Shown: positions 6,548 to 38,735, numbered from the stretch's first letter. The stretch: 64,000 bases of DNA from an uncultured Clostridia bacterium (GCA_934149305.1 CAKPEF010000002.1:75689-139688), one strand, 5' to 3'. The notes: a model not told the origin generated them from the sequence alone. Numbers and translations: made by a program.

Positions 6548-6739
6548 GCGATAATTCCGGCTTGATAATAATATTTTGTTTAGATATAATTGTTATAAGG
6601 TTGTGTAAACTAATTTATGAAAAAAGATGAAACATGCTGCAATCATGTGGCTTAAGTGTGCTCCATAAAAACTAATTGACAGAGTTACACTAAAATATTA
6701 GAATTAGTGTACACAACTTTTTATAATAAGGGGGAGCAT

Positions 6740-8333
6740 ATGTCTAAAAAACGTATTATTATTTGGTTAATTATTGGTATTATATTTTCTATTGGAATTT
6801 CAATAATGCTATATGTATTCATTCCTAAAAAATTAAAGATAAATATTAAACTTCCAAAAGAATTTGAATTTGAAATATCAAATTTTGATAATTATGTTCT
6901 TATAGAAAGTGATGAACTAACTATACACTATTCAGAAGATAGGTCTCCATATGAAGATACTTTTTGGTATATAGATTATTATCAAAATAGGTTTTATACG
7001 AATGAAGACTATTTAAAAGAAAATAATATAACCTTACACGAAAATAGAATAGCTTCAATCAATCGGTAATAAAACATCAATTTTATCACTTACAAAACAC
7101 TATGAAAATTTAGATGATACTACATATACTTATGTTTTTATTCAAACTGATGGGCAAAACTACACAAGGTTTATGTTTAAAACAACTATGAATTATGATG
7201 AAAGGTATGTAAAACTTTATGAGGATATAATAAATTCATATTCTGCTAGCAAGAAAGACACATTAAGAACAACGGCGATATATTATTCTAATAAAGTTAT
7301 GAGGAAGATATTTCATAAAAATGAATTCTTCAAGGCATACCAAACTGAAAAACTAGACTTAAAGCCGATTGCAAATCCAAACTGGGATGAAAAAACAAAA
7401 GAACTTTACCAAAAGTTTTTGAGCTCTAATAAAATCACATGGGGAATATTCACAGTAAATGATGTTGAAAAGGCTATGAGTGAGAAAGTACCAGATATAG
7501 AAGAAAAGTTAGATTATAAATTTGATATTATACTTGTTTATAATCACCTTGGAAATCCACTTCAGGTAGAAGAAATGAAGAAAATACATGAAGAAAATAG
7601 AATAATAGAGCTTACAGTTCAAACTTGTGTAAATAACAATACAAGATTATTTGGATATACGCCTATTTTTGATATATTAGATGGAAAAAAAGATGAGCAA
7701 ATTCGCACACTTGCAAAAGAGATAAAAGAATTTGGAAATCCGGTCTTGTTTAGATTAAATAATGAAATGAATACAGATTGGACAAGCTATTCTGGAATAA
7801 TTGCGCTTAGCGATTCAACTATTTATAAAGATGTATGGAAATATATATACAACATTTTTGAAGAAGAAAATGTGGCAAATTGCATTTGGATTTATAATCC
7901 AAACGACAACAATTATCCACCATCTATATGGAATAACTTTTTGTGCTATTATCCAGGTAACGAATATGTGCAAATGCTTGGTATTACGGGATATAACACT
8001 GGAACATATTATGAAAAACAAAATGCAGAACGCTTTAGAGAATTTAAAGAAATATATGATGATATAAATGGAAAGTATAAAGATATATTTAGTAAGTTTC
8101 CTTGGATTATCACAGAGTTTGCATCTAGCTCAATTGGTGGTGACAAAGCAAAATGGATAGAGAATATGTTTAAAAATATTGAGAATTACCCTAATATAAA
8201 AGCAGCAGTTTGGTTTAGCAATGCCGATTACGACCCAGCATATGAAAACAATACAAAAGTTTCAAGACCTTATTGGTTAGATGAAACAGATGAAACCATA
8301 GAAGCATTTAAAAAAGGAATACATAAAGACTAA
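6740..8333 (+). CDS. membrane-anchored GH26-like glycoside hydrolase. The N-terminal signal-anchor segment (6740-7063) is joined to the catalytic domain (7173-8333) across an in-frame CGG at 7064-7066 followed by a +1 frame
   Basis: GH26 motifs RLNNEMN and ITEFA are present. Frame 0 from 7065 to 7172 has no stop codon. The N-terminal TM segment would supply the otherwise missing export signal. Confidence 0.55.
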
Positions 8334-8551
8334 TAAAAAGGCCCGTATTATTTATTTGATGCAGTTTTTTTAATATAAAATAAATTATGTGAAGATTTTG
8401 TGAATTTTAGCACTCGACACTTGACAGTGCTAAAATTAGAGTTATAATAAAAAATGTAAAAAGTTGAAAGACTTATTACAACAATCAAATTAAATATGTG
8501 CTACTTTAAGTTAAGAGTGTCAACACATAAAAATAAAAAGGAGAGATTTAT

Positions 8552-8974
8552 ATGATGATGATACCAAGAAGAAATGATTTTGATGTGATAGGAGATATGT
8601 TTAGAGATCCATTTTTCACTGAACATGAAACAAGAGTTATGAAGACAGATATTAGAGAAAATAAAGATAATTATTTAATAGATATTGACTTGCCAGGATA
8701 TAGCAAAGACAATATTAAAATATCAGTAGAAGATGGTTATTTAACAGTACAAGCTTCAATTGATTCAAATCATGAAGAAAAAGAACATGGAAAATTTGTC
8801 AGAAGAGAAAGATATACAGGCAGTTGTTCAAGAAGCTTTTATGTAGGCGATGAAGTAAAGAGTGAGGATATAAAAGCATCATTTAAAAATGGTATATTAT
8901 GCTTAGCAGTACCAAAGAAAGAAGAAACAAAGAAATTGCCAGAAAAGAAATATGTAGAAATTATAGAAGAATAA
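8552..8974 (+). CDS. Hsp20 / alpha-crystallin small heat shock protein
   Basis: The alpha-crystallin domain is recognisable (DNYLIDIDLPGYSKDNIKISVEDGYLTV ... GILCLAVPK). Confidence 0.85.
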   Translation: MMMIPRRNDFDVIGDMFRDPFFTEHETRVMKTDIRENKDNYLIDIDLPGYSKDNIKISVEDGYLTVQASIDSNHEEKEHGKFVRRERYTGSCSRSFYVGDEVKSEDIKASFKNGILCLAVPKKEETKKLPEKKYVEIIEE

Positions 8975-8986
8975 GCATAAACAAAA

Positions 8987-9020
8987 GGCCAGTGAGTCTA
9001 AAACCCACTGGCTTTTGTTT
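8987..9020 (+). terminator. rho-independent terminator
   Basis: Stem gccagtg/cactggc followed by a T-run. Confidence 0.6.
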
Positions 9021-9052
9021 TAGCAGACATTTTAAAGAAAGGTTTTGATGAT

Positions 9053-9571
9053 ATGAAATATGTTTTTGTATCAGATATACATGGAAGCGTTGAAGGACTT
9101 CGAAAGGTTATTGATATTTATAAAAAAGAAAACGCGGATAAACTTGTTATCTTGGGCGATACTGCCTCTGGCATGAATGCAGAGGACAATAGAGAACTTG
9201 CACAAATGTTAAATGACATGAAAAACAATGTCGAAGTAATAAGAGGAAACTGCGATACTATTTCTTTTGAAGAAATGATAGATTTTGAAATGTATGACAT
9301 GGATATTTTATATATAAATGGTAAGTTTGTTACTATAACACACGGTCATTACTATAACGCATATAATCTTCCAGAAAACCATGGCGAAATATTTATACAA
9401 GGACATACGCATATTCCAATTCTAGCAAAACAAAATGGACTTATTTTAGCAAATCCAGGTTCTATAACAAGGCCAAGAGGAACAGATTTAAGATGCTATA
9501 TTTTAATAGATGAAAGTAAAATTTGCTTAAAAACATTAGATGGAAAAACAATTAAAGAATTGACCTTTTAA
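9053..9571 (+). CDS. YfcE-like metallophosphoesterase
   Basis: DIHGS, GD, GNCD, THGH and GHTH metal-binding motifs. Confidence 0.8.
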   Translation: MKYVFVSDIHGSVEGLRKVIDIYKKENADKLVILGDTASGMNAEDNRELAQMLNDMKNNVEVIRGNCDTISFEEMIDFEMYDMDILYINGKFVTITHGHYYNAYNLPENHGEIFIQGHTHIPILAKQNGLILANPGSITRPRGTDLRCYILIDESKICLKTLDGKTIKELTF

Positions 9572-9646
9572 TATTTATAAAGTATAATTTCCTTGTAAGT
9601 AAAAAGTGTGTTTGAAAATTTGACTTTTATTAAAGGAGGATACTTT

Positions 9647-10228: not shown

Positions 10229-10235
10229 CTAACAA

Positions 10236-10924: not shown

Positions 10925-11170
10925 ATATGCTACAAACATGTAGCTTAAGCTTAAGTGTGCTCCATAAAAAATACTGAATACAACCATTATAAAGGTAGTA
11001 TAAACTGCTTTGTAAAAAATGCAAAATAGCTACAATCATGTAGAGGAGCACAGTGTGCTCCATAAAAAATACTGAATACAACCATTATAAAGGTAGTAAA
11101 AACTGCTTTGTAAAAAAATGCAAAATAGCTACAATCATGTAGAGGAGCTTAGGTGTGCTCCATAAAACCC
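10925..11170 (+). repeat. tandem array (3 units, ~110 bp period) of the dispersed GGAGC-hairpin intergenic repeat
   Basis: The unit ...aaaatgcaaaatagctacaatcatgtagaggagc(acag/ttag)gtgtgctccataaaaaatactgaatacaaccattataaaggtagta... is repeated. Confidence 0.8.
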
Positions 11171-13576: not shown

Positions 13577-13612
13577 AAAAATGTAGCTTAAGCTTAGGTG
13601 TGCTCCATAAAA
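13577..13612 (+). repeat. single copy of the GGAGC-hairpin intergenic repeat
   Basis: tgtagcttaagcttaggtgtgctccataaaagc. Confidence 0.7.
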
Positions 13613-13655
13613 GCAATTGATGGCAGTACACAAAAATAAATAAAAGGAGATTTTT

Positions 13656-14816: not shown

Positions 14817-16007
14817 TTATTTTGTAAAGGCATATTCGCCTAAGAATAAAATCTCACCAGAAACTTCGTCTCTGATAAAATAAGTAAAAGGTCTATTAGC
14901 TTTAAACTCTTTTATTTCCTCAGGCATTGGCAATGAATTCTTTGTCATTAAAATAACTGTTGCGGCAGCAGCCTCGGTGCCATTCTCGTCTACCTCAATA
15001 AATGTTTTATGGATAACATCAGATATGTGTGCTTCTACATTATCAAACATATTAGAAAAGTCTGCAGCATTTGTAAAAGCAATATTTATTCCCATTTGTT
15101 TTAAAACATCAACAAAACTTTTTGTAAATTCTGTTCTAAACTTTGGCATACTTACAGAAACTTTTTTGTATTCCATTTTGCTGATAATATCATTTATATC
15201 AACATCTTTATCATCATCATTAAGTAAAATGTACATCGCAATATCTCTGCCAGAGTAATTCATTTTAAGCATTTGAACTCCATCATTTTCATAATATCCA
15301 AAGTGTTTTGTTTGGTTCATAAAATCAATTTCAGATTTGTTTCCGTTTCTATCTGTAAAAGTATCCTTTTTAGTATTTGCTGTGTCAAACTGATTTTCAA
15401 AAGAACCTTTAAAATAAATAGTGTTAACAAGTGCAGATAAAAAGCCTGCAGGCCTTTCTGCTGGCAAGACATTAGTTATTTTATTGTTCGTTTCTTTAGC
15501 AATGAAATCATTGATTTTACTAGCGATGATGTCGGCATTTTCTTCCATTGCAACACCTTTGTAAAAATCAGAAATTATTTTTTTGTAAGTATCTTTAAAA
15601 TTAGCACCCATTGCCTCAGTTTTGTTTAACCAAATAGAATTAGCAACATTTAAATTAACATCCTTATTAGAATTATATCTAGTAATAATATCGTTTGCTT
15701 TTTGATTGTATTCATCAATGCTAGAAACACCAAGAGCGCTTAAAATCTCTTTTTGAGTGTAACCATTTGCACCGTTTGCAGCCATCATCATGGCCATTTT
15801 AATACTAAAAGGTGAAATCATATAGTTTTGGTCTTTAGGCATATATTTCATAAAATCAAAATCACTCTCATATGAAGAAGAAATCTCATAACTCATATCA
15901 CCAGAATAAATATCACCAGAACTTGGCTTAATGACATCAGTATCACCTTTCATTGTGCAACCTCCTAACATAAATAAACTAACTAAAATACTAAGTGCTT
16001 TAATCAT
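14817..16007 (-). CDS. serpin (serine protease inhibitor) lipoprotein
   Basis: Lipobox LGGC. Serpin hinge GTEAAAAT of the reactive-centre loop and a conserved C-terminal region. Confidence 0.75.
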   Translation of the reverse strand: MIKALSILVSLFMLGGCTMKGDTDVIKPSSGDIYSGDMSYEISSSYESDFDFMKYMPKDQNYMISPFSIKMAMMMAANGANGYTQKEILSALGVSSIDEYNQKANDIITRYNSNKDVNLNVANSIWLNKTEAMGANFKDTYKKIISDFYKGVAMEENADIIASKINDFIAKETNNKITNVLPAERPAGFLSALVNTIYFKGSFENQFDTANTKKDTFTDRNGNKSEIDFMNQTKHFGYYENDGVQMLKMNYSGRDIAMYILLNDDDKDVDINDIISKMEYKKVSVSMPKFRTEFTKSFVDVLKQMGINIAFTNAADFSNMFDNVEAHISDVIHKTFIEVDENGTEAAAATVILMTKNSLPMPEEIKEFKANRPFTYFIRDEVSGEILFLGEYAFTK

Positions 16008-16239
16008 AAAAAAACCTCCTTAAAAATAGCTTATATAAATTGGACAACTAAAAAAATGTAAAGTCTCGACTTTTAATAATACAAAAACTCTAAACATACT
16101 TAAAGTATAACATAGTGTTTACAAGAAAAGAAGAATAATATAAAATTATAAATAATAAAGTCACAAGAGATATAAATTGGCTGAAAAATATATCAATGCA
16201 AAATAATGGAAAGTAATTTAAAACGCAATTAGTAATAGT

Positions 16240-16475
16240 GGCACATGAAATGTAGCGGAGCACAGCGTGCTCCATAAAAGTATGTCGGCACCAACATGAT
16301 GAAACACAGTTTAAACCAATACCACAATTAGTAATAATGGCACACAAAAAGTAGCGGAGCTTAAGTGTGCTCCATAGAAAATATGTTGGCGACAATATAA
16401 CAAAACACAAATTCCACAATTGATAATAGGACACATAAAATGTAGCGGAGCTTAGGTGTGCTCCATAAAAAAGAG
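16240..16475 (+). repeat. tandem triplet (~73-bp period) of the GGAGC-hairpin repeat, immediately upstream of 16494
   Basis: Three units ...ccacaattagtaata.tggcacaNaaaa.gtagcggagc....gtgtgctccataaaa... Confidence 0.85.
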
Positions 16476-16493
16476 AAAAGGGGGGGAAGTTTA

Positions 16494-17345
16494 ATGGAAA
16501 TAAATGATGCAGATTCAAATCAAAATAATGAATTAGGTATAAATAATATAATAATACTTAAACCATATGAGCCAACAAATTATCGAAGGATAGTAAATGT
16601 TGTTTCTGATATTGGGTACAAGACTTTTTTCATTATCGCAATTATTGCACTGATTTGTACGATTAGAAGACATGAAAAAAATAAGAAAAATGAGGAAGCC
16701 AAAAAAAGCATAACACGAGGAGTTGTTCTTACAATAATATTTTTTATAATTTCAATTTTTGTATGGCTTGTCCATGTAGCAACAGAGTGTCTTACTGAAA
16801 AACCAATAATCTATCTATATCCAGAAGAAGAAACCAATATAGAAGTAAAATTAGGCAAGAAAGAAAATATAACATGTTCGTATCCAAAGTATGAAAACGG
16901 ATGGAAGGTTGTAGCAAATCCAAACGGAGATTTAAAATACATAGAAAATGGTAAAAACTTATATGCCCTATATTATGAAGCAAAGACAGAAAAAGAAAAT
17001 AAAGTAGAAAAAGAGGGCTTTGTAGTAAAAGGCGAAGATAGTGCCAATTTCTTAGAAGAAAAACTTGAAATATTAGGACTAAATGAAAGAGAGTCTGAAG
17101 AATTTATAGTATACTGGCTACCAAAGCTAGAAGCAAATAAATATAACTACATAAGATTTTTAAACAAAGAAGAAATAGAAGAAAACATGCCACTAGAAAT
17201 AGAGCCAAAACCAGATACACAAATAAGAGTTTTAATGACATTTAAGGGACTAAATAAAGAAATAAAAGTAGAAGAACAACAATTAACAAGAGTAGAAAGA
17301 AAAGGATATACAGTAGTAGAATGGGGCGGAAGCGAAATAAAATAA
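16494..17345 (+). CDS. hypothetical membrane-anchored protein (paralog A1). The C-terminal ~190 aa are identical to the 19414 product
   Basis: Start moved to the ATG after the RBS AAAAGGGGGGG; the track extension MLHKKEK lies inside the repeat. Two N-terminal TM helices. Confidence 0.6.
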   Translation: MEINDADSNQNNELGINNIIILKPYEPTNYRRIVNVVSDIGYKTFFIIAIIALICTIRRHEKNKKNEEAKKSITRGVVLTIIFFIISIFVWLVHVATECLTEKPIIYLYPEEETNIEVKLGKKENITCSYPKYENGWKVVANPNGDLKYIENGKNLYALYYEAKTEKENKVEKEGFVVKGEDSANFLEEKLEILGLNERESEEFIVYWLPKLEANKYNYIRFLNKEEIEENMPLEIEPKPDTQIRVLMTFKGLNKEIKVEEQQLTRVERKGYTVVEWGGSEIK

Positions 17346-17367
17346 AAAATAAAATAGGGGGAAAAAC

Positions 17368-17775
17368 ATGGAACTAAAAGCAGTGAAAAATGAAACTAAA
17401 AAAGAATATTTAACTAAAAAAGAGCAATATCAAAAAATAAAAAACAAAGCTGGAAAGATAGGAATAAGTACAACATTGATGTTTTTGGCAAGCAAGACAA
17501 GTTATGCGGTGGAAGGGGACCCTATGAGACTTGATGGTGCTTTACCTTATGAGCCACCAGTATATCTTAGAATTACGGGTCTTATTAGATGGGGATTTAT
17601 ATTTGCAGGAATAATTTCGTTAATTATAACTTTAACAATAGCTATAATAAATAGAAAAAAAGAAGATGTGAAGAAGAAAATAAAAAAAGGCTTAATAATT
17701 ACTGTTGCACTTTTCGGAATGAGTATTATATTGCAGATAGTTTATACTTTATTAGAGAAAAATATGTATTATTAG
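17368..17775 (+). CDS. small membrane protein, family B (conserved leader MELKAVKNETKKEYLTKKEQYQKIKNKAGKIGI..., variable body, two TM helices)
   Basis: Three paralogs in the window share the first ~45 aa and then diverge. Confidence 0.55.
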   Translation: MELKAVKNETKKEYLTKKEQYQKIKNKAGKIGISTTLMFLASKTSYAVEGDPMRLDGALPYEPPVYLRITGLIRWGFIFAGIISLIITLTIAIINRKKEDVKKKIKKGLIITVALFGMSIILQIVYTLLEKNMYY

Positions 17776-19071: not shown

Positions 19072-19169
19072 TATAAATACAGTTTAAGTTTGTTTAGGAA
19101 AGAATAACATTAACATATAAGCATATCGAAATGACTGTAAAAACACCACAATTGGTAATAGGGCACATA

Positions 19170-19395
19170 AAAATGTAGCGGAGCACAGCGTGCTCCATAA
19201 AAGTATGTCGGCACCAACATGATGAAACACAGTTTAAACCAACACCACAATTAGTAATAGTGGCACACAAAAAGTAGCGGAGCTTAAGTGTGCTCCATAG
19301 AAAATATGTTGGCGACAATATAACAAAACACAAATTCCACAATTGATAATAGGACACATAAAATATAGCGGAGCTTAGGTGTGCTCCATAAAAAA
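19170..19395 (+). repeat. tandem triplet of the GGAGC-hairpin repeat upstream of 19414
   Basis: Nearly identical to the 16240-16475 array. Confidence 0.85.
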
Positions 19396-19413
19396 GAAAA
19401 AGGGGGAATCTTA

Positions 19414-20277
19414 ATGGAAATAAATGAGGCAGATTTAAATCAAAAAAATGAATTAGATATAAATAATATAACGATAGCTGAAATACCTAAAGCAACCAAT
19501 TATCGAAGGATAATAAATATTGTTTCTAATATTGGATGCAATATTTTTTTCATTATTGCAATTATTGCACTGATTCTCACAATTAAGAGACATATAAAAA
19601 ATAAAAAAAATGAAGAAAAAAAGAGCATAGTACTTGGAATTGTTTTAACAGTAATATTTTTTTGTGTTTCACTAGTAGCGTGGGTGGTATATTTAGAAAC
19701 CAATTGGATAAATTATTCGCAAGCGGTTAAAAAACCAATAATCTACCTGTATCCAGAAGAAGAAACCAATATAGAAGTAAAGTTAGGCAAGAAAGAAAAT
19801 ATAACATGCTCGTATCCAAAGTATGAAAACGGATGGAAGGTTGTAGCAAATCCAAACGGAGATTTAAAATACATAGAAAATGGTAAAAACTTATATGCCC
19901 TATATTATGAAGCAAAGACAGAAAAAGAAAATAAAGTAGAAAAAGAGGGCTTTGTAGTAAAAGGCGAAGATAGTGCCAATTTCTTAGAAGAAAAACTTGA
20001 AATATTAGGACTAAATGAAAGAGAGTCTGAAGAATTTATAGTATACTGGCTACCAAAGCTAGAAGCAAATAAATATAACTACATAAGATTTTTAAACAAA
20101 GAAGAAATAGAAGAAAACATGCCACTAGAAATAGAGCCAAAACCAGATACACAAATAAGAGTTTTAATGACATTTAAGGGACTAAATAAAGAAATAAAAG
20201 TAGAAGAACAACAATTAACAAGAGTAGAAAGAAAAGGATATACAGTAGTAGAATGGGGCGGAAGCGAAATAAAATAA
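19414..20277 (+). CDS. hypothetical membrane-anchored protein (paralog A2)
   Basis: C-terminal domain identical to A1; N-terminal TM region diverged. Confidence 0.6.
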   Translation: MEINEADLNQKNELDINNITIAEIPKATNYRRIINIVSNIGCNIFFIIAIIALILTIKRHIKNKKNEEKKSIVLGIVLTVIFFCVSLVAWVVYLETNWINYSQAVKKPIIYLYPEEETNIEVKLGKKENITCSYPKYENGWKVVANPNGDLKYIENGKNLYALYYEAKTEKENKVEKEGFVVKGEDSANFLEEKLEILGLNERESEEFIVYWLPKLEANKYNYIRFLNKEEIEENMPLEIEPKPDTQIRVLMTFKGLNKEIKVEEQQLTRVERKGYTVVEWGGSEIK

Positions 20278-20299
20278 AAAATAAAATAGGGGGAAAAAC

Positions 20300-20710
20300 A
20301 TGGAACTAAAAGCAGTGAAAAATGAAACTAAAAAAGAATATTTAACTAAAAAAGAGCAATATCAAAAAATAAAAAACAAAGCCGGAAAAATAGGAATAGG
20401 CACAATGTTGATGTTCTTGGCAAGTGGGACAAGTTATGCATTGCCAGTAGATGTTACAAATATTACGCCGCTCGCAGGTGCTATGCCTATTGGTATGCCA
20501 CCTGCATGGTTTAGAGTTACCCATTGGTTATTAAGATTGGCAGGAATAATTTCTTTGATTATAACATTAATAGAAGTTATAGCGAGTTACATGCAAGAAG
20601 ATGCAAAAAAGAAAATCAAGAAAGATATAATAATCACAGTTGTCATCTTTGTGGTGGTTGTCATATTTGACATAGTATGTGCTTTATTAAAAAATCAAAT
20701 GTGGTGGTAA
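20300..20710 (+). CDS. family-B small membrane protein (paralog B3)
   Basis: Conserved leader followed by a variable body. Confidence 0.55.
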   Translation: MELKAVKNETKKEYLTKKEQYQKIKNKAGKIGIGTMLMFLASGTSYALPVDVTNITPLAGAMPIGMPPAWFRVTHWLLRLAGIISLIITLIEVIASYMQEDAKKKIKKDIIITVVIFVVVVIFDIVCALLKNQMWW

Positions 20711-28854: not shown

Positions 28855-31800
28855 ATGTTTAGTTTAACAGAGCCACAAAAGAATGTAATTGAAACGGATC
28901 AATTTTTTAAAAACACTTCAATTTCAAATATTGGAGGTTATTCGAGATTTTTAGACAGAGTAGATTTGGAACTAATGAAAAAAGCCATAAATAAATTAAT
29001 CGAAAATGCAGATGGGCTAAGACTTAGGCTAAAAAATGATAATGGTGAAATAAGTCAGTATATAGAGCCTTACAGAGAAGAAAAAATTGAGATTATTAAA
29101 TTGGATGGAGAAAACCCTATGGTCCAAAGCGAGAAATGGATGAGAAAACCATTTGGCTTTACATCTAAATTGTATGACTTTAAATTGGTTGAATTAGATG
29201 GCGAAGAAGGAATTTTCATAAAACTACATCATGCAATATCTGATGCATGGTCTATGGCAATTGTTTATTCGAAGGTTCTTATGTATTACGAGGCTTTGTT
29301 AAACGGAGAAGAAATACAAAATGATATACCTTCATATACTTTATTTTTAGAGAGTGAAAAAGAATATTTTAACTCAAAAAACTATGAAAGAGATGAAGAA
29401 TATTGGAATGAAAAATATAATGAAAAACCAACTTTTGTTTCACTTGCAAGTAAAAAAGGAGTAATAAGCGTAGCAGCTTCAAGAAAATCATTTATTATAT
29501 CAAAAGAAGAAAAGAAAGTAATAGAAGACTTTTGCACAGAAAATGGGATTTCTATGGCAGTATTTTTTGAAGCAGTTGTTTCTTTGTATGCTTCGAGAAC
29601 TAATAATGCTGATGATATTACACTTTGTACGATAGGTGTAAATAGATCAGGAAAAACCGAAAAGAAAATAGTAGGTATGTTTAATAATATTTTACCAATG
29701 ACAGTTAAAATTGATTGGAATTCGGATTTTAAAAATTTATGTAATAGCATTACAAAGGCACATTTTGAAATCTTTAGACATCAAAAATATCCGTACCAAA
29801 AAATAATGCATGCTATTAGCGAAAAACACGGAAGTTCTAATATTTATGATATAATGGTATCTTTTCAAAATGCAAAATATGATGAAAATATAAAAACAAA
29901 ATACAAAACAGAATGGATTTTTAATGGTTGTGCAGAACTTAGCTTTATGATGAATATAGCTGATATGGAAGGTGCGGGCGTATTAGATGTAAATATAGAT
30001 TATAAAGATGAAGCATTCACGGAAAATGAAATAGAGAAAATATATGCAAGACTTATGCATATAGTACAGCAAGTAATAAGGAAAAAAGAAATATCATTTA
30101 AAGATATAGAGGTTGTTACTGATGATGAGAAATTAGAAATATTGAAAAAATTTAATGATACTAAAAAAGATTATCCAAAAGAAAAGAGAATATATGACTT
30201 TTTAGAAGAGAATGTTATGAAATTTCCTCAAAAAGATGCATTATATTTTGAGGAAAATAAGATGTCATATTGTGAGTTTAATCAAAAAGTAAATTCACTT
30301 GCAAACTATATCATAAGCAAAAATGTAAAGCATAATTCAATAATAGGAATTATGCAAGAACGTTCATTTGAAATGCTTATAAGTATTTATGCAGCATTAA
30401 AAGCTGGCTGTGCATATATGCCTATGGACCCACATTTTCCAAACGATAGAATAGAATTCATGTTAGAAGATAGTGAAGCACCTATTGTTCTTACTAATTC
30501 AAAATGGTTGGACAAGTTAACGATGGCAAAAGAATGCGTGGAAGTAGATAAGTTTGATTATGAAAAATATTCAAAAGAAAATCCTAAAATAGATGTATCT
30601 TCAAAAGATGTGGCATATGTAATTTATACATCAGGTTCTACTGGAAAACCAAAAGGTGCGCAAATACAACATCATAGTGCAATAAACAGAATAAAATGGA
30701 TGCATGAACATTATCCTCTTTTGAAAGATGATGTAATACTTCAAAAAACCCCATATACTTTTGATGTGTCAGTATGGGAACTATTTTGGTGGAGCATGTA
30801 TGGCGGTAGCTTGAAAATACTTATACCAGAAGGACACAAGGATCCATTAGAAATAATAAATGCAATAGAAGATAAAAATGTAACACATATGCATTTTGTA
30901 CCATCTATGTTAATGGCATTTTTACAGTATATAAAAATAAATAAGAATCAAATTTCAAGATTAAAAACATTAAAATATGTTTTTGCAAGTGGTGAGGCTC
31001 TTCAAAGTGAACACGTAAAAGATTTTTATAACTTGCTAGGTCAAAATGGAACAATACTTATAAATTTGTATGGACCAACTGAATGTACGGTTGATGTTTC
31101 GTGTTATGAATGTCCTAAAGAAAACATACCAAGTATAATTCCGATAGGCAAGCCTATTGATAACACACAACTTTTGATATTAGATAAAGCTAATAAATTG
31201 TTGCCAGTCGGTGTTGCAGGAGAACTTATAATAAGTGGTGTGTTAGTAGGAAAAGGATACATAAAAAGAGATGAACTAACAAACGAAAAATTTATAAAGA
31301 ATGAATATTATGACTCTGAAAAAATGTATAAAACAGGTGACTTAGCAAGATGGCTTCCTGATGGAAACATTGAATACTTAGGAAGAATAGATAATCAAAT
31401 TAAAATTAGAGGTTTAAGAGTTGAACTTGGTGACATAGAAAATACTATACTTAAATATGCTTCTATAGCTGAAACTGTTGTTACAGTGTTCGAAAACATG
31501 GGAGAAAAATACTTGTGTGCATACTTTACAGCAACCGAAGAAATAGCAATACCAAAACTAAAAGAAGAGCTATCAAAAGAATTACCGGACTATATGGTAC
31601 CAACATATTATGTGCAATTGGACAAAATGCCATTAAATCATAATGGAAAAATAGATAGAAAAGCTTTACCAAAGCCAGATACAAATATCGAAGAAAAATA
31701 TATTGCACCTCAAAACGAGTTAGAAAAGAAATTACAAGAATGTGCCGAAAGAGCTTTAAAGAGAAAAAATATAAGCGTTGAGAGTGATTTGCTTTTATCT

Positions 31801-33066
31801 GGTCTTACATCACTAGGAGTTATTGCATTAATCACAGAATTATCTAACATGGGTATAGAGGTTAAAGTGCAAGACTTTTATAGAGGAAAGAGCATAAGAA
31901 AACTAGCCAATATCTTGTTAGGTGATGATAAAAAAGATGAAGATTATAAAGATGATGAAAATTATAAAGATATATCAGACATAAAAGATATAGTGGTAGA
32001 AACGAAGAATGATGGGGATATACTATTAACAGGTGTAACAGGATTTCTTGGAATTCATTTGCTAGAAGAACTATATAAAACAACAAATAGAAAAATTTAT
32101 TGTATTATTAGAAAAAAAGAAAAATATGATGAATTCTTGAAAACATATACAAGTATTCCAAAAGAAAATGACAGGGTAATAACATTAAATGGTGATATAA
32201 CTAATGAAAAATTAGGCTTGGATGATAATGTGTACGAGAAATTGACACATGACGTTTCTATTGTAATTCATTCAGCTGCTAATGTTTCATACTTCTGTTC
32301 ATTTGAGAAAGCAAGAGCAATTAATTACATTGGGACATGCAATGTAATTGAGTTTGCTAAATTAAGTAATGCAAAATTACATCATATTTCAACGATGAGT
32401 GTTTCGGGAGATGTACTTACTAAGCAAACTATGGAATATCCAAATTTGACGGAAGATAAGTTATATATAGGACAACTATATAAAGAAAATGTTTATGCAT
32501 ATACAAAATATTTAGCTGAAAAAGAGGTTATAAAAAATATAAGAGAGAAGAAATTATCAGCATCAATATATCGTTTGCCAAACTTAACTTGGAGAATGAA
32601 AGATGGAAAGTTCCAAAAGAATTATGAAGAAAACGATTTATATATTTTGACAAAAGTAATGGCAAGAATGAATAAAATACCATTGGAAATAAAGAATGAA
32701 AATATTTTATTGGCACCAATAGATGATTTAGCAAGAGCAATAGTATTACTAATAAATAAAAAGACTCAAAATGAGGTATATCATCTAGTTAGTTCATCAA
32801 GCCCAACAATAGAAGGATATATAAAAATGCTTACTGATGCGGAGACAGTACCAATTGCAGAAATGTACAAAATACTATTAGATAATTATCAAGATAAAGA
32901 AATGCAATTTGTATCGATGTATGTAAAAGGAATTTTAAATGATGCAGAGAAAATGGTAGTACACGTACATTATGAAAAAACGGAAAAAGAGTTAGAAGAA
33001 TTAGGATTTAAATGGGGAAAAATCGATAAAGAATACGTAGAAAAGATAAAACAAATAGGTAAATAA
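28855..33066 (+). CDS. single-module nonribosomal peptide synthetase, C-A-T-R (condensation, adenylation, thiolation, terminal NAD(P)H thioester reductase)
   Basis: C domain HHAISDAWS; A domain YTSGSTGKPKG, NLYGPTE, YKTGD, GRIDNQIKIRG; carrier Ser in LSGLTSLG; R domain TGVTGFLG Rossmann motif. Confidence 0.85.
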   Translation: MFSLTEPQKNVIETDQFFKNTSISNIGGYSRFLDRVDLELMKKAINKLIENADGLRLRLKNDNGEISQYIEPYREEKIEIIKLDGENPMVQSEKWMRKPFGFTSKLYDFKLVELDGEEGIFIKLHHAISDAWSMAIVYSKVLMYYEALLNGEEIQNDIPSYTLFLESEKEYFNSKNYERDEEYWNEKYNEKPTFVSLASKKGVISVAASRKSFIISKEEKKVIEDFCTENGISMAVFFEAVVSLYASRTNNADDITLCTIGVNRSGKTEKKIVGMFNNILPMTVKIDWNSDFKNLCNSITKAHFEIFRHQKYPYQKIMHAISEKHGSSNIYDIMVSFQNAKYDENIKTKYKTEWIFNGCAELSFMMNIADMEGAGVLDVNIDYKDEAFTENEIEKIYARLMHIVQQVIRKKEISFKDIEVVTDDEKLEILKKFNDTKKDYPKEKRIYDFLEENVMKFPQKDALYFEENKMSYCEFNQKVNSLANYIISKNVKHNSIIGIMQERSFEMLISIYAALKAGCAYMPMDPHFPNDRIEFMLEDSEAPIVLTNSKWLDKLTMAKECVEVDKFDYEKYSKENPKIDVSSKDVAYVIYTSGSTGKPKGAQIQHHSAINRIKWMHEHYPLLKDDVILQKTPYTFDVSVWELFWWSMYGGSLKILIPEGHKDPLEIINAIEDKNVTHMHFVPSMLMAFLQYIKINKNQISRLKTLKYVFASGEALQSEHVKDFYNLLGQNGTILINLYGPTECTVDVSCYECPKENIPSIIPIGKPIDNTQLLILDKANKLLPVGVAGELIISGVLVGKGYIKRDELTNEKFIKNEYYDSEKMYKTGDLARWLPDGNIEYLGRIDNQIKIRGLRVELGDIENTILKYASIAETVVTVFENMGEKYLCAYFTATEEIAIPKLKEELSKELPDYMVPTYYVQLDKMPLNHNGKIDRKALPKPDTNIEEKYIAPQNELEKKLQECAERALKRKNISVESDLLLSGLTSLGVIALITELSNMGIEVKVQDFYRGKSIRKLANILLGDDKKDEDYKDDENYKDISDIKDIVVETKNDGDILLTGVTGFLGIHLLEELYKTTNRKIYCIIRKKEKYDEFLKTYTSIPKENDRVITLNGDITNEKLGLDDNVYEKLTHDVSIVIHSAANVSYFCSFEKARAINYIGTCNVIEFAKLSNAKLHHISTMSVSGDVLTKQTMEYPNLTEDKLYIGQLYKENVYAYTKYLAEKEVIKNIREKKLSASIYRLPNLTWRMKDGKFQKNYEENDLYILTKVMARMNKIPLEIKNENILLAPIDDLARAIVLLINKKTQNEVYHLVSSSSPTIEGYIKMLTDAETVPIAEMYKILLDNYQDKEMQFVSMYVKGILNDAEKMVVHVHYEKTEKELEELGFKWGKIDKEYVEKIKQIGK

Positions 33067-33359: not shown

Positions 33360-34502
33360 ATGGATATAGAGAAAGAAAAAATGGTAATTTTTTTAAGTAT
33401 ATACTAGTAATATTAGCTACAGCAGCAATAACTTTATACATTAACAATGCTATGCAAAAAGCAAGTGAAATAGATGACTTTGCCAAGAGACTAAGTAGCA
33501 GTGGAGAAAACACGGTAAAAGAAGAAATAACAGAGTTTAGTGCTACTAAGACAAGCAATTATATCGAAAGAGCAATGCAAAGCACAGTTGGAATAGGGCT
33601 TATAAAACCTAGTGGCACAAGTGTTTTTGATTTGGATTTAGCTAGAAAATGGGGTCTTCGGAACTGGGATAATAGTATCAGAAAAAGGATATATATTAAC
33701 AAATCAACATTTGGCACAAAAAGTTGGAGCTAAGATTGTCGTAACGCTAAACACGGGCAAATCAGTACAGGGAAAAATAGTTTGGGTGGAAGAAAACATA
33801 GACCTAAGCTTAATAAAAGTAGAAGAAAAAGGTTTGACACCTGCAATATTAGGCGATTCAAACGATATATTAGTTGGCGATGAGGTAATAGCAATCGGAA
33901 ATCCGCTTGGAGCCGAATTTCAAGGAACGACAACAAAAGGCATAGTAAGCGGTTTAGATAGAACAATAATGTTTGAAGAGAATAATGAAAAAGTATATAT
34001 GGAAGGCTTAATTCAAACAGATGCAAGTATAAATCCAGGAAACAGCGGTGGACCGCTAATAAATGCAAGGGGCGAAGTAATTGGAATAAACACAGTTAAA
34101 ATCACATCAGCAGAGGGGATAGGTTTTGCTGTACCAATAAACTTAATAAAGAATGTGATAAATTCTTATGTTTTAGAAGATAAATTCGATGAGGCATATT
34201 TAGGGCTTTATGCGTATGATAATGGAGCAATAAAATACATGGAAAATAAGAACAACTTTGAAAAAGGAATATATATCGTAAGCGTTGACAAAATAGGACC
34301 ATGTGGAAAGGTGGGAGTAGCAAAAGGCGATATATTAACAAAAATTGATGGAAAGGAAATAAATAAGATGACAAAATTAAGAGAATATTTATATTCGAAA
34401 AAGCCAGGTGAAAAAGTTGTTTTAACACTTGAAAACTCAAGCTTAAAAGAAGTAGAAGTGGAACTTCGGAAAGAAAAAATAAAAGAGATGTTAAAAAGTT
34501 AA
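33360..34502 (+). CDS. htrA: HtrA/DegP-family serine protease with a PDZ domain, interrupted by an in-frame CGG at 33659-33661 followed by a +1 frame. Given as two ORFs in the track; the second in-frame CGG at 34467 sits near the C-terminus
   Basis: TM anchor; His-box region GTGIIVSEKGYILTNQHL; Ser site GNSGGPL; PDZ. Deleting the C of the CGG yields WGLGTGIIVS. Confidence 0.65.
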
Positions 34503-34536
34503 AGGTATAGCAAAAACACTAGCTATACCCTTAATA

Positions 34537-34613
<77 letters not shown>

Positions 34614-34711
34614 ATCACAAGTATATTATACAATGATTTTTTAAAAAAGCAATAACTTAAATTAAAATCTATTGAAAATTATCGAAATCTATACTATAAT
34701 TTGTTTGCAAT

Positions 34712-34788
34712 GCGTTCGTAGCTCAGTTGGATAGAGCGCTCCCCTCCTAAGGGAGAGGTCGGAGGTTCAATTCCCCTCGGACGCACCA
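34712..34788 (+). tRNA. tRNA-Arg (anticodon CCT)
   Basis: Acceptor gcgttcg/cggacgc; anticodon loop ctCCTaa; CCA is encoded. Confidence 0.8.
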
Positions 34789-34917
34789 ATGACGTATCTG
34801 TTCGAACTAATGGAACAGAATTGATACAAAATCAATCAGAAAATAAAATCTGGTTGATTTTTACGAAAAAATATTGTGATTTGTGAACAAAGCAAACGAA
34901 TACGAGGAGGAGTAAAA

Positions 34918-35888: not shown

Positions 35889-35974
35889 ATTGTGTTTAAA
35901 GCTGAACAGTAACTGATAGTTGGTTACTCTTCAGCTTTAAAAACTAGAAGTATATATAGAAGATAATTGTGCTT

Positions 35975-36010
35975 TGCAAAATGTAGCGGAGCACAGTGTG
36001 CTCCATAAAA
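35975..36010 (+). repeat. copy of the GGAGC-hairpin repeat (perfect GGAGCAC-AGT-GTGCTCC palindrome variant)
   Basis: aaaatgtagcggagcacagtgtgctccataaaaatac. Confidence 0.75.
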
Positions 36011-36124
36011 ATACTACTGTTCAGGATTGACCATAAATTAAGTCTGAACAGTAACGATAGCTGAGAAAAATTAAGTTGCAATTGTTTTAATACGGCAGAT
36101 ATGATAAAATCTCAACATAAGTGA

Positions 36125-36622
<498 letters not shown>

Positions 36623-36699: not shown

Positions 36700-36732
36700 G
36701 TATGTGTACTGTGAATGCACATACTTTTTTTT
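36700..36732 (+). terminator. rho-independent terminator
   Basis: Stem gtatgtg/cacatac followed by a T8 run. Confidence 0.7.
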
Positions 36733-36788
36733 GCTCAAAAATAGAGTAGACCTGTGAAATCTACCCTATCGACTATGTAGTATTTACC

Positions 36789-36920
36789 TTAGTCTTTGTC
36801 TGTCTTGTCTTCATTTACTTTTTGGGTATCTTGCTGAATTTGTTGTTGTAATTGAAAGTTCTTTTCTTTTTCAGCAATTAGCATGTCAACTAAACGAAGA
36901 ACGGTATCTCCGATCTTCAA
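36789..36920 (-). CDS. possible small protein (43 aa) with a TTG start and strong RBS; not in the ORF track
   Basis: GGGAGGTTATAGTC TTG ... KIGDTVLRLVDMLIAEKEKNFQLQQQIQQDTQKVNEDKTDKD. Confidence 0.3.
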   Translation of the reverse strand: MKIGDTVLRLVDMLIAEKEKNFQLQQQIQQDTQKVNEDKTDKD

Positions 36921-37104
36921 GACTATAACCTCCCTTCCGTCTTCAGTAAAGACTACCTTTTGACAAGAAAGGTTGGTGATATTCTACAATGATTTTGACT
37001 TAAATACAAGCGAACATTTTGAAATTCTTGATAAATATTTGCTTTCTTGGTTACTATTCGGCTTAAAAAATAAAAAGGCATGTATCGAATGCAATTATAT
37101 TTTA

Positions 37105-37145
37105 TAAAAATGTCGAGGAGCTTAGGTGTGCTCCATAAAAAATTA
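37105..37145 (+). repeat. copy of the GGAGC-hairpin repeat
   Basis: aaaaatgtcgaggagcttaggtgtgctccataaaaaatt. Confidence 0.75.
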
Positions 37146-37300
37146 TAATTCAGCATTTGCTATAAATTAAGGTTGAATAATGACAATTTGTTAAGTTATG
37201 ATTTTTTTAAAGAATAAAAAAAGTCGAAAAGTTTGACAAAAAGCAAAAAAGTTAGTACACTTATAATTAGTGTACTAACTTTTTTAATATTGAATAGGAG

Positions 37301-37721
37301 ATGATACATATGGATCTTGAAGAAGTTCTAAGAAGAATGTTACAAAGAAAATATCACATATTAGAAATGAGACTTCAAAAGTATAACCTAGTTAAAGGTC
37401 AAGCTGATTTATTAGTTGTTATAAGAGAAAACGATGGCTTAACTCAAAACGAACTTGCGAATATATTAGGCATAAAAGGTTCTTCTATGAGTGCAAGGCT
37501 AAATAAATTGGAACAATATGATTATATTAGTAGAGTGACAGATGAAGAAAATTTAAAAAAGAAGAGAATTTATATAACTAAGTCACGGAAAGATTGCAAG
37601 TATCCAATGTAAAAGAATATTGAAAGAAATCGATGAATTGATGTATGAAGGATTTTCGAAAAAAGATATAAAAACATTTGAAAAGTATATAGAAAGAATG
37701 CTAAAGAACTTAAGAGCATAA
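37301..37721 (+). CDS. MarR-family transcriptional regulator, interrupted by an in-frame CGG at 37586-37588 followed by a +1 frame (the track shows only the first 103 aa)
   Basis: Winged-helix segment GLTQNELANILGIKGSSMSARLNKLEQYDYISR; the downstream frame encodes the C-terminal helix KRILKEIDELMYEGFSKKDIKTFEKYIERMLKNLRA. Confidence 0.6.
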
Positions 37722-37898
37722 GAAATAAAAACTTAGAAATTAAAAATTTTCGATTTTCAAATACCGAGCAAAGCCTATGTGGCATATGTGATTATTTTTG
37801 AATAATATAAAAGAATAAAAGAAATTTTTTATTTACCATGAATATTACCTGGATTTTATAAATAAAATAAGCCTACCGTATGGTAGGCTTTAACTTAC

Positions 37899-38219
37899 TT
37901 ATTTCTTTTTAGCTACTGGTTTTTTAGCAACTACTTTTTTAGCTACTGGTTTAGCAGCAACCTTTTTAGCAGCTGGTTTAGCAGCAACTTTCTTAGCTAC
38001 TGGTTTAGCAGCAACTTTTTTAGCAGCTGGTTTAGCAGCAACTTTCTTAGCAGCTGGTTTAGCAGCAACTTTTGTAGCTGGCTTAGCAGCAACTTTCTTA
38101 GCTACTGGTTTAGCAGCAGCTTTTTTAGCTACTGGTTTAGCGGCAGCTTTTTTAGCTACTGGTTTAGCAGCAACTTTCTTTGCAGCTGGTTTAGCAGCAA
38201 CTTTCTTTGCAACTGGCAT
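37899..38219 (-). CDS. Lys/Ala/Pro-rich tandem-repeat basic protein (histone H1-tail-like / AlgP-like), 106 aa
   Basis: MPVAKKVAAKPAAKKVAAKPVAKK... encoded by ~30-nt DNA repeats; RBS AAGAAGGGGGGG upstream. Confidence 0.6.
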   Translation of the reverse strand: MPVAKKVAAKPAAKKVAAKPVAKKAAAKPVAKKAAAKPVAKKVAAKPATKVAAKPAAKKVAAKPAAKKVAAKPVAKKVAAKPAAKKVAAKPVAKKVVAKKPVAKKK

Positions 38220-38694
38220 GTTATTGCCCCCCCTTCTTTTGTAAAACAATATGTTTTTATAAAAATCATGAAGTAACTTTTTTAATGACACACGAAAAGT
38301 GTATCTTAAGAAAAGTGTATAAATATAATTGCCTTTTGAGCAATAACTGTAAATCTATAAAAAGATTTACACTTTCCTCATAACAAAAATATAACTAATT
38401 TCGATATTTTTTGCAATAGTATTTTGAAAAAAAATTGCACTCAAAAATAATTAGCATACTAATTATTAGTAAGCTAATTATTTTGTTATGCATAAAATGA
38501 GAATTGTGGCAAAGATAAGAAAAAATATACATTTAAAAAAATTTTTTAACTTTTTTCATATAACAAGAAAATTTATTAAATTCTTTCATATTATCCAATA
38601 ATAATTAAATATAAAAATTAAAAATCTTATCTTCATAGATAGCTAATATTTTTGAAAAAATTGTTACTATTCAACCTTAATTTATGACAGATGC

Positions 38695-38735
38695 TGAATT
38701 ATAATTTTTTATGGAGCATACCTAAGTTCCTCTAC
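38695..38735 (-). repeat. reverse-oriented copy of the GGAGC-hairpin repeat
   Basis: Reverse complement reads atgtagaggaacttaggtatgctccataaaaaa. Confidence 0.65.

What the first reader, a model, noticed from the sequence alone, without database searches (positions are those of the whole stretch)
6634..38735. Novel dispersed hairpin repeat family at gene 5-prime ends
More than 15 copies are present. They fall in four groups:
- Tandem arrays: 10925-11170, 16240-16475 and 19170-19395.
- Single copies: 6634-6672, 13577-13612, 35975-36010 and 37105-37145.
- One reverse-oriented copy: 38695-38735.
- One degenerate copy near 63235.

The core carries an inverted repeat, GGAGCAC-AGT-GTGCTCC or GGAGC-ttaggtgt-GCTCC. 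It is always intergenic, is oriented with the downstream gene, and ends 20-160 nt before the start codon. The tandem triplets precede the metallophosphoesterase gene and both A-cassette genes.

It could be an operator for a global regulator, a promoter-associated RNA leader element, or a REP/BOX-like element. I do not recognise it as any known box (cre, CodY, Rex or T-box).
Basis: seen in the sequence. Interest (0 to 1): 0.55.

Follow-up and report, generated by a model that had tools for sequence, protein, structure and literature searches.

The report
REP elements of gut Clostridia
The repeated hairpin is a clostridial family of REP elements: small GTAG-tagged palindromes spread by a domesticated transposase (RAYT). 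It is a known kind of selfish or semi-domesticated DNA repeat, not a new regulatory box, although its strong sense orientation is unusual.

Summary
The repeat is real. There are 14 copies plus one relic, all intergenic, with core (A)TGTAG-N-GGAGCAC-AGY-GTGCTCC-ATAAAA.

It meets the published definition of a REP element: a GTAG tag 1 nt 5' of a GC-rich 7-bp stem.

- **Distribution.** The same sequence occurs many times per genome in uncultured gut and rumen Clostridia MAGs.
- **BIME-like arrays.** In those MAGs it alternates in inverted orientation with partner REPs (GGCGAAC, GGCGCAC stems).
- **Cognate transposase.** Five independent metagenomic loci carry a 150-160 aa RAYT flanked by this REP on one side and an inverted copy on the other. 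The RAYT matches Pfam Y1_Tnp, and its only PDB match is E. coli TnpA-REP (4ER8). The catalytic and GTAG-binding residues are conserved.
- **Instability.** Copy number differs between strains of the window's own species: 1 vs 3 copies before the metallophosphoesterase gene, and 0, 1 or 2 before tadA.
- **Embedding.** All window copies sit inside larger repeated modules. Two kinds are bounded by inverted repeats, one with 8-bp direct repeats and one with an outward promoter.
- **Placement.** The "5'-end" position mostly reflects co-directional genes.
- **Unexplained.** Across other genomes single copies are co-oriented with flanking genes 80:16.

Verdict: a new member of a known kind. No RAYT lies in the window.

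The parts
6634..6672 (+). REP copy with degenerate 5' arm (TGTGGCTTAAGT-GTGCTCCATAAAA)
6599..6717 (+). 'Type A' composite module. Imperfect inverted ends GGTTGTGTAAACTAATT / AATTAGTGTACACAAC enclose the REP and an outward promoter-like site, TTGACA-17-TAGAAT (6676-6704). The same module precedes unrelated genes in L010, L047 (x2) and L075.
10936..10970 (+). REP copy 1 of array 1 (5' arm replaced by GCTTAAGCTTAAGT)
11035..11068 (+). REP copy 2 of array 1: GTAGA-GGAGCAC-AGT-GTGCTCC-ATAAAA, 7-bp stem
11134..11167 (+). REP copy 3 of array 1 (GGAGC-TTAGGTGT-GCTCC). It is followed by a Type A-like right arm before the metallophosphoesterase gene. The array period is 98 nt (TRF 10954-11167, 95% matches). 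The related strain L093 has a single copy here.
13577..13613 (+). REP copy (5' arm degenerate), 20 nt after the DsbD-like gene and 42 nt before the thioredoxin gene
16248..16280 (+). REP copy 1 of array 2 (7-bp stem, loop AGC)
16350..16380 (+). REP copy 2 of array 2 (GGAGC-TTAAGTGT-GCTCC, tail ATAGAAA)
16436..16471 (+). REP copy 3 of array 2, 22 nt before the start codon of a membrane-protein gene
19169..19203 (+). REP copy 1 of array 3. Array 3 is the paralogue of array 2, within the duplication 16226-17763 / 19149-20695.
19273..19303 (+). REP copy 2 of array 3
19360..19394 (+). REP copy 3 of array 3 (tag ATAG instead of GTAG), 19 nt before the start codon
35923..36055 (+). 133-nt composite unit with inverted ends GTTACTCTTCAG...CTGAACAGTAAC. 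It encloses REP 35979-36012 and is flanked by GATAGTTG / GATAGCTG. It is absent in strains L100 and L101 and tandemly doubled in L095.
37050..37184 (+). Second copy of the composite unit, enclosing REP 37108-37141 (tag GTCG), upstream of a small MarR-family gene
38663..38794 (-). Third, inverted copy of the composite unit, enclosing degenerate REP 38706-38736 (GGAAC...ATGCTCC)
63236..63262 (+). Probable relic: GTAATGGAGCTTAAGT keeps the 5' half; the 3' arm is lost
   Evidence: not detected

Best explanation
The repeats are REP elements (repetitive extragenic palindromes) of a family that is widespread in uncultured gut and rumen Clostridia.

**What the unit is.** Each unit is a GTAG tetranucleotide, one spacer base, and a GC-rich hairpin (GGAGCAC / GTGCTCC) with an A-rich 3' tail.

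**How it works.**
- Inferred from the E. coli system: as single-stranded DNA the unit is the substrate of a REP-associated tyrosine transposase (RAYT / TnpA-REP). This is a single-copy, IS200-like HUH-Y1 enzyme that recognises the hairpin and the GTAG guide, then cleaves and rejoins next to it. It thereby maintains and disperses the repeats in trans.
- Shown: related genomes encode such a RAYT, bracketed by exactly this REP in inverted orientation.
- Shown: the window holds only non-autonomous copies, each nested in a larger repeated module.
- Shown for copy-number change, inferred for its mechanism: the window copies expand and contract locally by tandem duplication and deletion with units of 98 nt and about 142 nt.

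**Effect on genes.** No dedicated regulatory role is needed to explain them.
- Inferred: when transcribed, which would be in sense orientation for most copies, the REP forms a stable stem-loop in 5'-UTRs or intercistronic RNA and may affect mRNA stability or translation.
- Inferred: in antisense orientation the hairpin is followed by a U-rich run and looks terminator-like. Selection against that could explain the orientation bias.
For: **1. Fit to the REP definition.** Quentin et al. 2018 (PMC6006769) require a GTAG or GTGG tag 0-2 nt 5' of a fully paired stem of at least 7 bp, a loop of 2-5 nt and a GC-rich base. Four window copies meet this exactly: GTAG-N-GGAGCAC-AGY-GTGCTCC.

**2. Many copies per genome in one lineage.**
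Several MAGs gave at least 10 loci each.
- The metagenome scan also hit its limit, at 120 loci.
- There were no matches in 2.9 million viral contigs.

**3. Variant stems keep the tag.** GGCGAAC/GTTCGCC and GGCGCAC/GTGCGCC carry the same GTAG tag. They alternate with GGAGCAC REPs in inverted orientation, for example 8 REPs at L046 2418-2688. This is BIME-like.

**4. The RAYT itself (L156 2973-3428).**
- Pfam Y1_Tnp scores 26.1 bits, above the 23-bit cut-off.
- The only PDB match is 4ER8 TnpA-REP, E = 4.5e-7.
- The best NCBIfam hit is REP_Tyr_transpos, E = 1.5e-18.
- H59/H61, W94, Q95, H101, R104, Y115 and N119 are aligned and conserved. E100 is replaced by D, as in subclasses 2.5 and 2.7 of PMC6006769.

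**5. REP-RAYT-REP loci (REPtrons).**
- L156 is flanked by REP(+) and REP(-) of the GGAGCAC type.
- Four further homologues at 66-78% identity, each in a different gene neighbourhood (L223/226, L227, L228, L232), have the same layout.
- More distant homologues are flanked by other stems: L231 (61%) by GGCGAAC/GGCGCAC, and L230 (51%) by GGCGAAC REPs upstream and just after the stop, here in direct orientation.
- L034 has a truncated RAYT next to a REP.

**6. Instability within the species.** 1 vs 3 copies before the metallophosphoesterase gene. 0, 1 or 2 copies before tadA. Assemblies break at the repeat.

**7. No Rfam family matches,** even at E up to 1.
Against: - No RAYT lies in the 64-kb window or in the first 91 loci. 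The RAYT-bearing contigs are not from the window's species. So a RAYT in this genome is assumed, not shown.
- The window has no inverted REP pairs, only single copies and head-to-tail arrays.
- Six window copies have a 5-bp stem with an 8-nt loop, outside the strict REP descriptor.
- Unlike classical REPs, which cluster near the 3' ends of upstream genes (PMC3733652), these copies are strongly sense-oriented. They lie slightly nearer the downstream start: median 87 vs 167 nt in one set and 43 vs 68 nt in the other.
- The 8-bp direct repeats flanking the 133-nt unit suggest a DDE-type transposition, which RAYTs do not perform. More than one mobility mechanism is therefore involved.
- RAYT activity on this REP is untested.
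Confidence: 0.9

Rival explanations
1. A cis-acting RNA element. It would be a hairpin in the 5'-UTR or between cistrons that stabilises the mRNA (for example a block to 5'-3' or 3'-5' exonucleases) or tunes translation. It would be selected for that role, whatever its origin.
For: - Sense co-orientation with flanking genes is 37:10 and 43:6 in two independent sets.
- About half of the copies end within 60 nt of the next start codon.
- In L080 the REP ends 1 nt before the tpiA Shine-Dalgarno sequence, inside the pgk-tpiA operon, so it must be transcribed.
- The outer stems of the 133-nt unit tolerate G-U pairs on the sense strand.
- The convergent and divergent cases show no majority-strand bias (6:5). 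This argues weakly against a purely replication-driven orientation.
Against: - The downstream genes are unrelated: pilins, uppS, PPIase, ABC transporter, tadA, thioredoxin.
- Copy number varies within the species with no change in the gene.
- Four window copies have lost the hairpin.
- Region types match the supply of intergenic DNA.
- There is no Rfam match.
- A hairpin alone is symmetric, so RNA stabilisation does not itself predict an orientation bias.
- This reading is compatible with REP identity rather than an alternative to it.
Confidence: 0.25
2. An operator, that is a binding site for a dimeric transcription factor (a global regulator), using the 7-3-7 palindrome near promoters.
For: - GGAGCAC-AGT-GTGCTCC is a perfect palindrome.
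- In Type A modules it sits 8-10 bp upstream of a -35-like hexamer.
- One copy precedes a MarR-family gene.
Against: - Loop length varies from 3 to 8 nt, so half-site spacing is not kept.
- The stem sequence covaries (GGCGAAC, GGCGCAC) while the asymmetric GTAG tag stays fixed.
- Copies lie inside operons and inside coding sequence (L080, L056).
- There are BIME-like arrays of 8 copies.
- The same sequence brackets RAYT genes.
- The downstream gene set is functionally incoherent.
Confidence: 0.03
3. The repeated units are primarily MITEs mobilised by a DDE transposase. The GTAG hairpin would be just a conserved internal module, not an independent REP.
For: - The 133-nt unit has 12-16-bp inverted ends.
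- It has perfect 8-bp flanking direct repeats in L030 (AGAATATG) and L015 (TCTCAAAC), and 7/8 in the window.
- It lies in unrelated contexts in different species.
- The Type A module is also bounded by about 17-bp inverted repeats and ends abruptly at them.
Against: - Most foreign copies are bare hairpins without these arms.
- Two modules with unrelated ends share the same core.
- The hairpin forms BIME-like arrays and brackets RAYT genes on its own.
- The apparent target duplications also fit tandem amplification of 'unit plus spacer' (L095, L015).
- No matching transposase was seen.
Confidence: 0.1

Closest known systems
E. coli REP/BIME elements with TnpA-REP (RAYT; PDB 4ER8)
   Same: - A GTAG tag 5' of a GC-rich imperfect palindrome.
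- Many extragenic copies.
- Several stem variants within a genome, alternating in inverted orientation.
- A single small HUH-Y1 gene bracketed by inverted REPs.
- The catalytic and GTAG-contacting residues are conserved.
   Different: - The host is a low-GC Clostridia lineage (window 30% GC), not a Proteobacterium.
- The stem is shorter (7 bp).
- There is a conserved A-rich 3' tail, CCATAAAA, whose CCATG variant supplies the RAYT start codon (L223, L228).
- In the window there are only singletons and head-to-tail arrays.
- There is a strong sense-orientation bias and no clustering at the 3' ends of genes.
REPIN-RAYT systems of Pseudomonas (Bertels and Rainey 2011) and the GTAG-tagged families of Di Nocera et al. 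2013 (PMC3733652)
   Same: - GTAG-tagged palindromes.
- Dimers in head-head or tail-tail arrangement in some genomes (for example GGAGCAC + GGCGAAC tail-to-tail in the CAMVPR MAG).
- RAYT association.
   Different: - Most copies here are singles, not doublets.
- The 2013 survey text does not mention Clostridia or Firmicutes.
- Bertels et al. 2017 only note that Group 1 RAYTs also occur in Clostridia, with few flanking repeats.
Promoter-carrying MITEs such as Neisseria Correia elements, and pneumococcal BOX/RUP composite repeats
   Same: - Modules of about 120-135 nt with inverted ends.
- They are inserted upstream of unrelated genes.
- One type carries an outward sigma-70-like promoter.
- They are modular and variable in copy number.
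   Different: - The core here is a RAYT-type REP.
- No cognate DDE transposase was identified.
- Target duplications are seen in only 3 of 7 units.
- There is no sequence similarity to those families, and no Rfam hit.
IS200/IS605 insertion sequences
   Same: The enzyme is a Y1 HUH transposase acting on subterminal DNA hairpins, with a tetranucleotide guide.
   Different: - The protein matches the RAYT model far better than IS200 (67 vs 17 bits).
- The repeats are about 25 nt and dispersed without the gene.

Membership tests
REP / RAYT system | GTAG (or GTGG) tetranucleotide 0-2 nt 5' of the hairpin | tested here: met
   GTAG plus 1 nt in 10 of 14 window copies. The variants are ATAG, GTCG and TGTGG. 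The tag is kept across stem variants in other genomes.
REP / RAYT system | Fully paired GC-rich basal stem of at least 7 bp with a loop of 2-5 nt | tested here: met
   Met by 4 window copies (GGAGCAC-AGY-GTGCTCC, -11.6 kcal/mol) and by most foreign copies. Six window copies have a 5-bp stem with an 8-nt loop, and 4 are degenerate.
REP / RAYT system | High copy number, predominantly extragenic | tested here: met
   14 of 14 copies are intergenic in a window that is 84% coding. Only 6 foreign copies lie inside genes.
REP / RAYT system | Inverted pairs or alternating arrays (BIME / REPIN) | tested here: met
   Met in related MAGs (L046 with 8 alternating REPs, also L016, L065, L006). Not met in the window itself, where arrays are head-to-tail.
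REP / RAYT system | A cognate RAYT gene flanked by the same REP in inverted orientation | tested here: met
   L156, L223/226, L227, L228 and L232. Not found in the window or in its species' contigs.
REP / RAYT system | The RAYT has the HUH motif, the catalytic Tyr with downstream Asn, and the GTAG-contacting residues | tested here: met
   The alignment to 4ER8 shows H59, H61, W94, Q95, D for E100, H101, R104, Y115 and N119. Pfam Y1_Tnp is above its cut-off. NCBIfam REP_Tyr_transpos scores 67 bits, below its 80-bit equivalog cut-off.
REP / RAYT system | The RAYT binds and cleaves the single-stranded REP | not testable with these tools
   This needs biochemistry.
MITE (composite modules only) | Terminal inverted repeats and target-site duplication, with copies at non-orthologous sites | tested here: inconclusive
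   Inverted ends are present and contexts differ. 8-bp direct repeats are seen in 3 of 7 units, but tandem amplification can mimic them. No transposase was identified.
Curated cis-regulatory RNA / riboswitch (Rfam) | A match to a covariance model, or a conserved structure beyond a single hairpin linked to a coherent gene set | tested here: not met
   No hit at gathering score or at E up to 1. Flanks differ between copies, and the downstream genes are unrelated.

The most novel reading that the evidence does not exclude
This clostridial REP family has been co-opted as a sense-strand RNA or promoter module.

- Selection, not insertion mechanics, would keep it co-oriented with transcription (80:16).
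- Selection would also keep it close to start codons.
- The antisense orientation would be purged because hairpin plus U-run terminates transcription.
- The composite versions would act as portable promoter and 5'-UTR cassettes that rewire the expression of whatever gene they land in front of.
Probability: 0.2. Interest if true: 0.55.

Novelty: new member of a known kind. Interest (0 to 1): 0.35.

Why it matters
- **Taxonomic reach.** REP/RAYT systems have been studied almost only in Proteobacteria. Here a well-defined REP family with its RAYT is documented in abundant, uncultured, low-GC gut and rumen Clostridia.
- **Annotation and assembly.** These repeats break short-read assemblies, create spurious ORFs across arrays, and could be mistaken for regulatory motifs or small-RNA genes.
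- **Strain variation.** Copy number differs between strains directly upstream of genes. This gives natural alleles for testing whether REPs affect expression.
- **Open question.** The strong sense orientation is not what the classical REP literature describes. It could help separate replication-linked from transcription-linked constraints on RAYT-driven elements.

Tried and rejected
- **Known RNA family.** Rfam gave nothing on the repeats, at gathering score or at E up to 1.
- **Alternative-sigma or sigma-54 promoter reading of the core.** By inspection, the spacing between candidate hexamers is inconsistent among copies. In L080 the Shine-Dalgarno sequence starts 1 nt after CCATA, leaving no room for a -10 in the core.
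- **RAYT in the window or first 91 loci.** A search by HUH regex and tblastn, using E. coli YafM recalled from memory, found none. Clustering all ORFs near REPs showed only housekeeping families. Nothing was encoded next to REP clusters.
- **Phage or plasmid origin.** There were 0 matches in viral contigs. Two loci do carry MobV-type relaxases, not followed up.
- **A conserved leader upstream of tadA.** Rejected because the same 133-nt unit lies in other contexts in other species and is absent in some strains.
- **Separating replication from transcription as the cause of the orientation bias.** In 8-kb loci, flanking-gene strand, majority strand and GC skew always agreed for unidirectional regions, so the test has no power. 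The convergent and divergent cases (6:5) hint against replication, but the numbers are small.
- **Two scripts did nothing useful.**

Full report
**1. The observation**

The reported arrays and single copies are at the stated coordinates.
- GTGCTCCATA with up to 1 mismatch occurs 15 times against 2.4 expected; one of these (243) is a chance hit. GTAGNGGAGC occurs 14 times against 3.0 expected, some of them chance one-mismatch hits.
- A profile built from 89 copies in other genomes finds 14 copies in the window, 13 on the + strand and one on the - strand.
- The copy near 63235 keeps only the 5' half and is best read as a relic.
- All copies are intergenic in a window that is 84.4% coding.
- Ten copies fold into the hairpin. 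Four have a 7-bp stem with a 3-nt loop, and six have a 5-bp stem with an 8-nt loop. Four have lost the 5' arm.
- The arrays at 16.2 kb and 19.2 kb are part of one 1.57-kb segmental duplication at 86% identity, so they are one event, not two.
- The window is 30% GC, and its genes look like those of a gut Clostridia organism. Identical proteins occur on Hadza and other human-gut metagenome contigs.

**2. What the core is**

The consensus is (A)TGTAG-N-GGAGCAC-AGY-GTGCTCC-ATAAAA.

Nearly all are uncultured Clostridia MAGs from gut and rumen, and several MAGs gave at least 10 loci each. A metagenome scan also hit its limit, at 120 loci. A scan of 2.9 million viral contigs found none.

*Stem variants.* In those genomes the same GTAG tag precedes hairpins with other, internally complementary stems: GGCGAAC/GTTCGCC (22 cases) and GGCGCAC/GTGCGCC (6 cases). 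These alternate with the GGAGCAC type in inverted orientation, for example eight REPs at L046 2418-2688.

*Fit to the definition.* A GTAG tag 0-2 nt 5' of a GC-rich stem of at least 7 bp with a short loop, present in many extragenic copies and arranged in alternating arrays, is the published operational definition of REP/BIME elements (PMC6006769, read; PMC3733652, read).

**3. The cognate transposase**

No Y1 gene lies in the window or in the first 91 loci. The metagenome loci gave one.
- L156 2973-3428 encodes a 151-aa protein with NHIHMI and WQKSYYDHIIRN...YIDEN motifs.
- It passes Pfam Y1_Tnp (26.1 bits, cut-off 23).
- Its only PDB match is E. coli TnpA-REP 4ER8, E = 4.5e-7. In that alignment H59, H61, W94, Q95, H101, R104, Y115 and N119 are conserved, and E100 is D.
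- Its best NCBIfam model is REP_Tyr_transpos, at 67 bits against 17 bits for IS200.
- The gene is bracketed by GTAGCGGAGCACTACAGTGCTCCATA upstream and an inverted GTAGCGGAGCACTAAAGTGCTCCATTA right after the stop codon.

A protein search found 5148 relatives. The closest are from Clostridia MAGs.
- Four homologues at 66-78% identity, each in a different gene neighbourhood, have the same REP(+)-RAYT-REP(-) layout. In L223/226 the downstream REP carries one stem mismatch. In two of the four loci the REP's CCATG tail provides the start codon.
- More distant homologues (61% and 51%) are flanked mainly by GGCGAAC/GGCGCAC-type REPs. So REP type tracks RAYT divergence.
- L034 carries a truncated RAYT beside a REP.

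This meets the strongest defining feature of the family, although not in the window's own species.

**4. Behaviour in the population**

- A contig encoding an identical metallophosphoesterase has one REP where the window has three.
- Upstream of tadA, strains carry 0 (L100, L101), 1 (window and L096-L099, L102) or 2 tandem copies (L095) of the 133-nt unit.
- Short-read contigs start or end inside the repeat.

The triplets are therefore unstable amplifications, not a fixed regulatory design.

**5. Larger modules**

Every window copy is nested in a longer repeated unit.

*The 133-nt unit.*
- It occurs at 35923-36055, 37050-37184 and 38663-38794 (inverted). It has 12-16-bp inverted ends.
- It recurs in other species in unrelated contexts: between rpsB and an unannotated 167-aa ORF in L058, and elsewhere in L030.
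- Perfect 8-bp direct repeats flank it in L030 and L015, and a 7/8 repeat flanks it in the window.
- This looks MITE-like, but tandem 'unit plus spacer' amplification (L095, L015) can mimic target duplications.

*The 'Type A' module.*
- It lies at window 6599-6717. Related right arms follow the REPs before the genes at 11238 and 13656.
- It is bounded by about 17-bp inverted repeats and contains a promoter-like TTGACA-17-TAGAAT right after the REP.
- The same module precedes unrelated genes in L010, L047 and L075.

*A third form.* Its left arm, gATAGTGTTAAGTAGTCTATGAAAAATT, plus the REP sits directly before the ribosome-binding sites of pilin, uppS, PPIase and ABC-transporter genes.

**6. Placement and orientation**

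Region types. Counting single REPs once per intergenic region in the two independent collections, the regions are 83% unidirectional, 10% divergent and 7% convergent. Intergenic DNA in the same loci is 76%, 17% and 7%. So there is no special affinity for 5' ends. 'Upstream of a gene' follows from co-directional gene order.

Orientation. What is non-random is orientation.
- In unidirectional regions the GTAG strand matches the coding strand 37:10 (p = 1e-4) and 43:6 (p = 6e-8).
- I could not separate replication from transcription as the cause.
- A plausible selective reason is that the reverse complement reads as a GC hairpin followed by CUACAUUUUU. The terminator scan flags this for five window copies, whereas the sense strand is followed by AUAAAA. 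This is inference.

**7. Rivals**

- An operator is unlikely. Loop length varies, stems covary around a fixed asymmetric tag, and copies occur inside operons (L080, pgk-tpiA) and inside tsaB (L056).
- A dedicated RNA leader is unlikely. The downstream genes are unrelated, copy number varies, and Rfam finds nothing.
- Secondary RNA effects of a REP remain possible and are the most interesting open point.

**8. Novelty**

REP/RAYT systems are well known. Bertels et al. 2017 mention that Group 1 RAYTs also occur in Clostridia, with few flanking repeats. The 2013 GTAG-REP survey does not mention Clostridia or Firmicutes. This is a new member of a known kind. It has two unusual traits: sense-orientation bias and nesting in promoter-bearing or MITE-like modules.

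Noticed in passing
window 16226-17763 and 19149-20695: A 1.57-kb segmental duplication at 86% identity. It carries a REP triplet, a 283-287-aa membrane protein and a roughly 135-aa protein, neither with a Pfam family. The second copy is followed by a radical-SAM gene (20714-21805). This may be a peptide-modification cluster.
   Followed up: partly
window 37899-38291 (-), tandem repeat 37906-38216: A lysine/alanine-rich histone-H1-like ORF built from 27-nt tandem repeats (11.5 copies). Gene calls in other strains give 97 and 106 aa, so its length is polymorphic.
   Followed up: partly
L095 1243-2317, L098 1473-2559, compared with window about 34500-34876: Some strains carry an extra Bro-N-domain gene plus a 61-aa ORF between the trypsin-PDZ protease gene and the NADase-translocation-domain gene, next to the tRNA genes at window 34540-34785. 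This is a strain-variable islet at a tRNA locus.
   Followed up: no
L223 2486-2510, L228 2486-2510: The RAYT start codon is the ATG of the REP's 3' tail (GTGCTCCATGA). The upstream REP hairpin therefore overlaps the translation start, reminiscent of the stem-loop control of IS200 transposase translation.
   Followed up: partly
L056 3333-3496: Three REPs (GGCGCAC and GGAGCA types) lie in frame inside a tsaB-like gene (287 aa), adding repeated 'EAHSVR' peptide segments.
   Followed up: no
L057 about 6930-7760, L081 about 4217-5470: MobV-type relaxase genes (HMDETTPHMHL motif) lie within a few kb of REP copies. Some REP-bearing contigs may be mobilisable elements.
   Followed up: no
window 28855-33066: A 1403-aa NRPS-like gene with condensation, AMP-binding, PP-binding and NAD-binding reductase domains, according to gene calls on identical contigs.
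   Followed up: no
window 14817-16007 (-): A bacterial serpin gene (Pfam Serpin, E = 3e-86), divergent from REP array 2.
   Followed up: no
window 40126-40220; 4725-4885; 34540-34785: Small SRP RNA between a 382-aa ORF and dnaX, and four tRNA genes. These are the only Rfam hits at gathering score in the window.
   Followed up: yes
window 6680-6717: Inverted repeat TACACTA-N13-TAGTGTA straddling the -10 of the Type A module promoter. The same TAGTGTA word forms the module's left end. It could be an operator or simply the module's terminal repeat.
   Followed up: no
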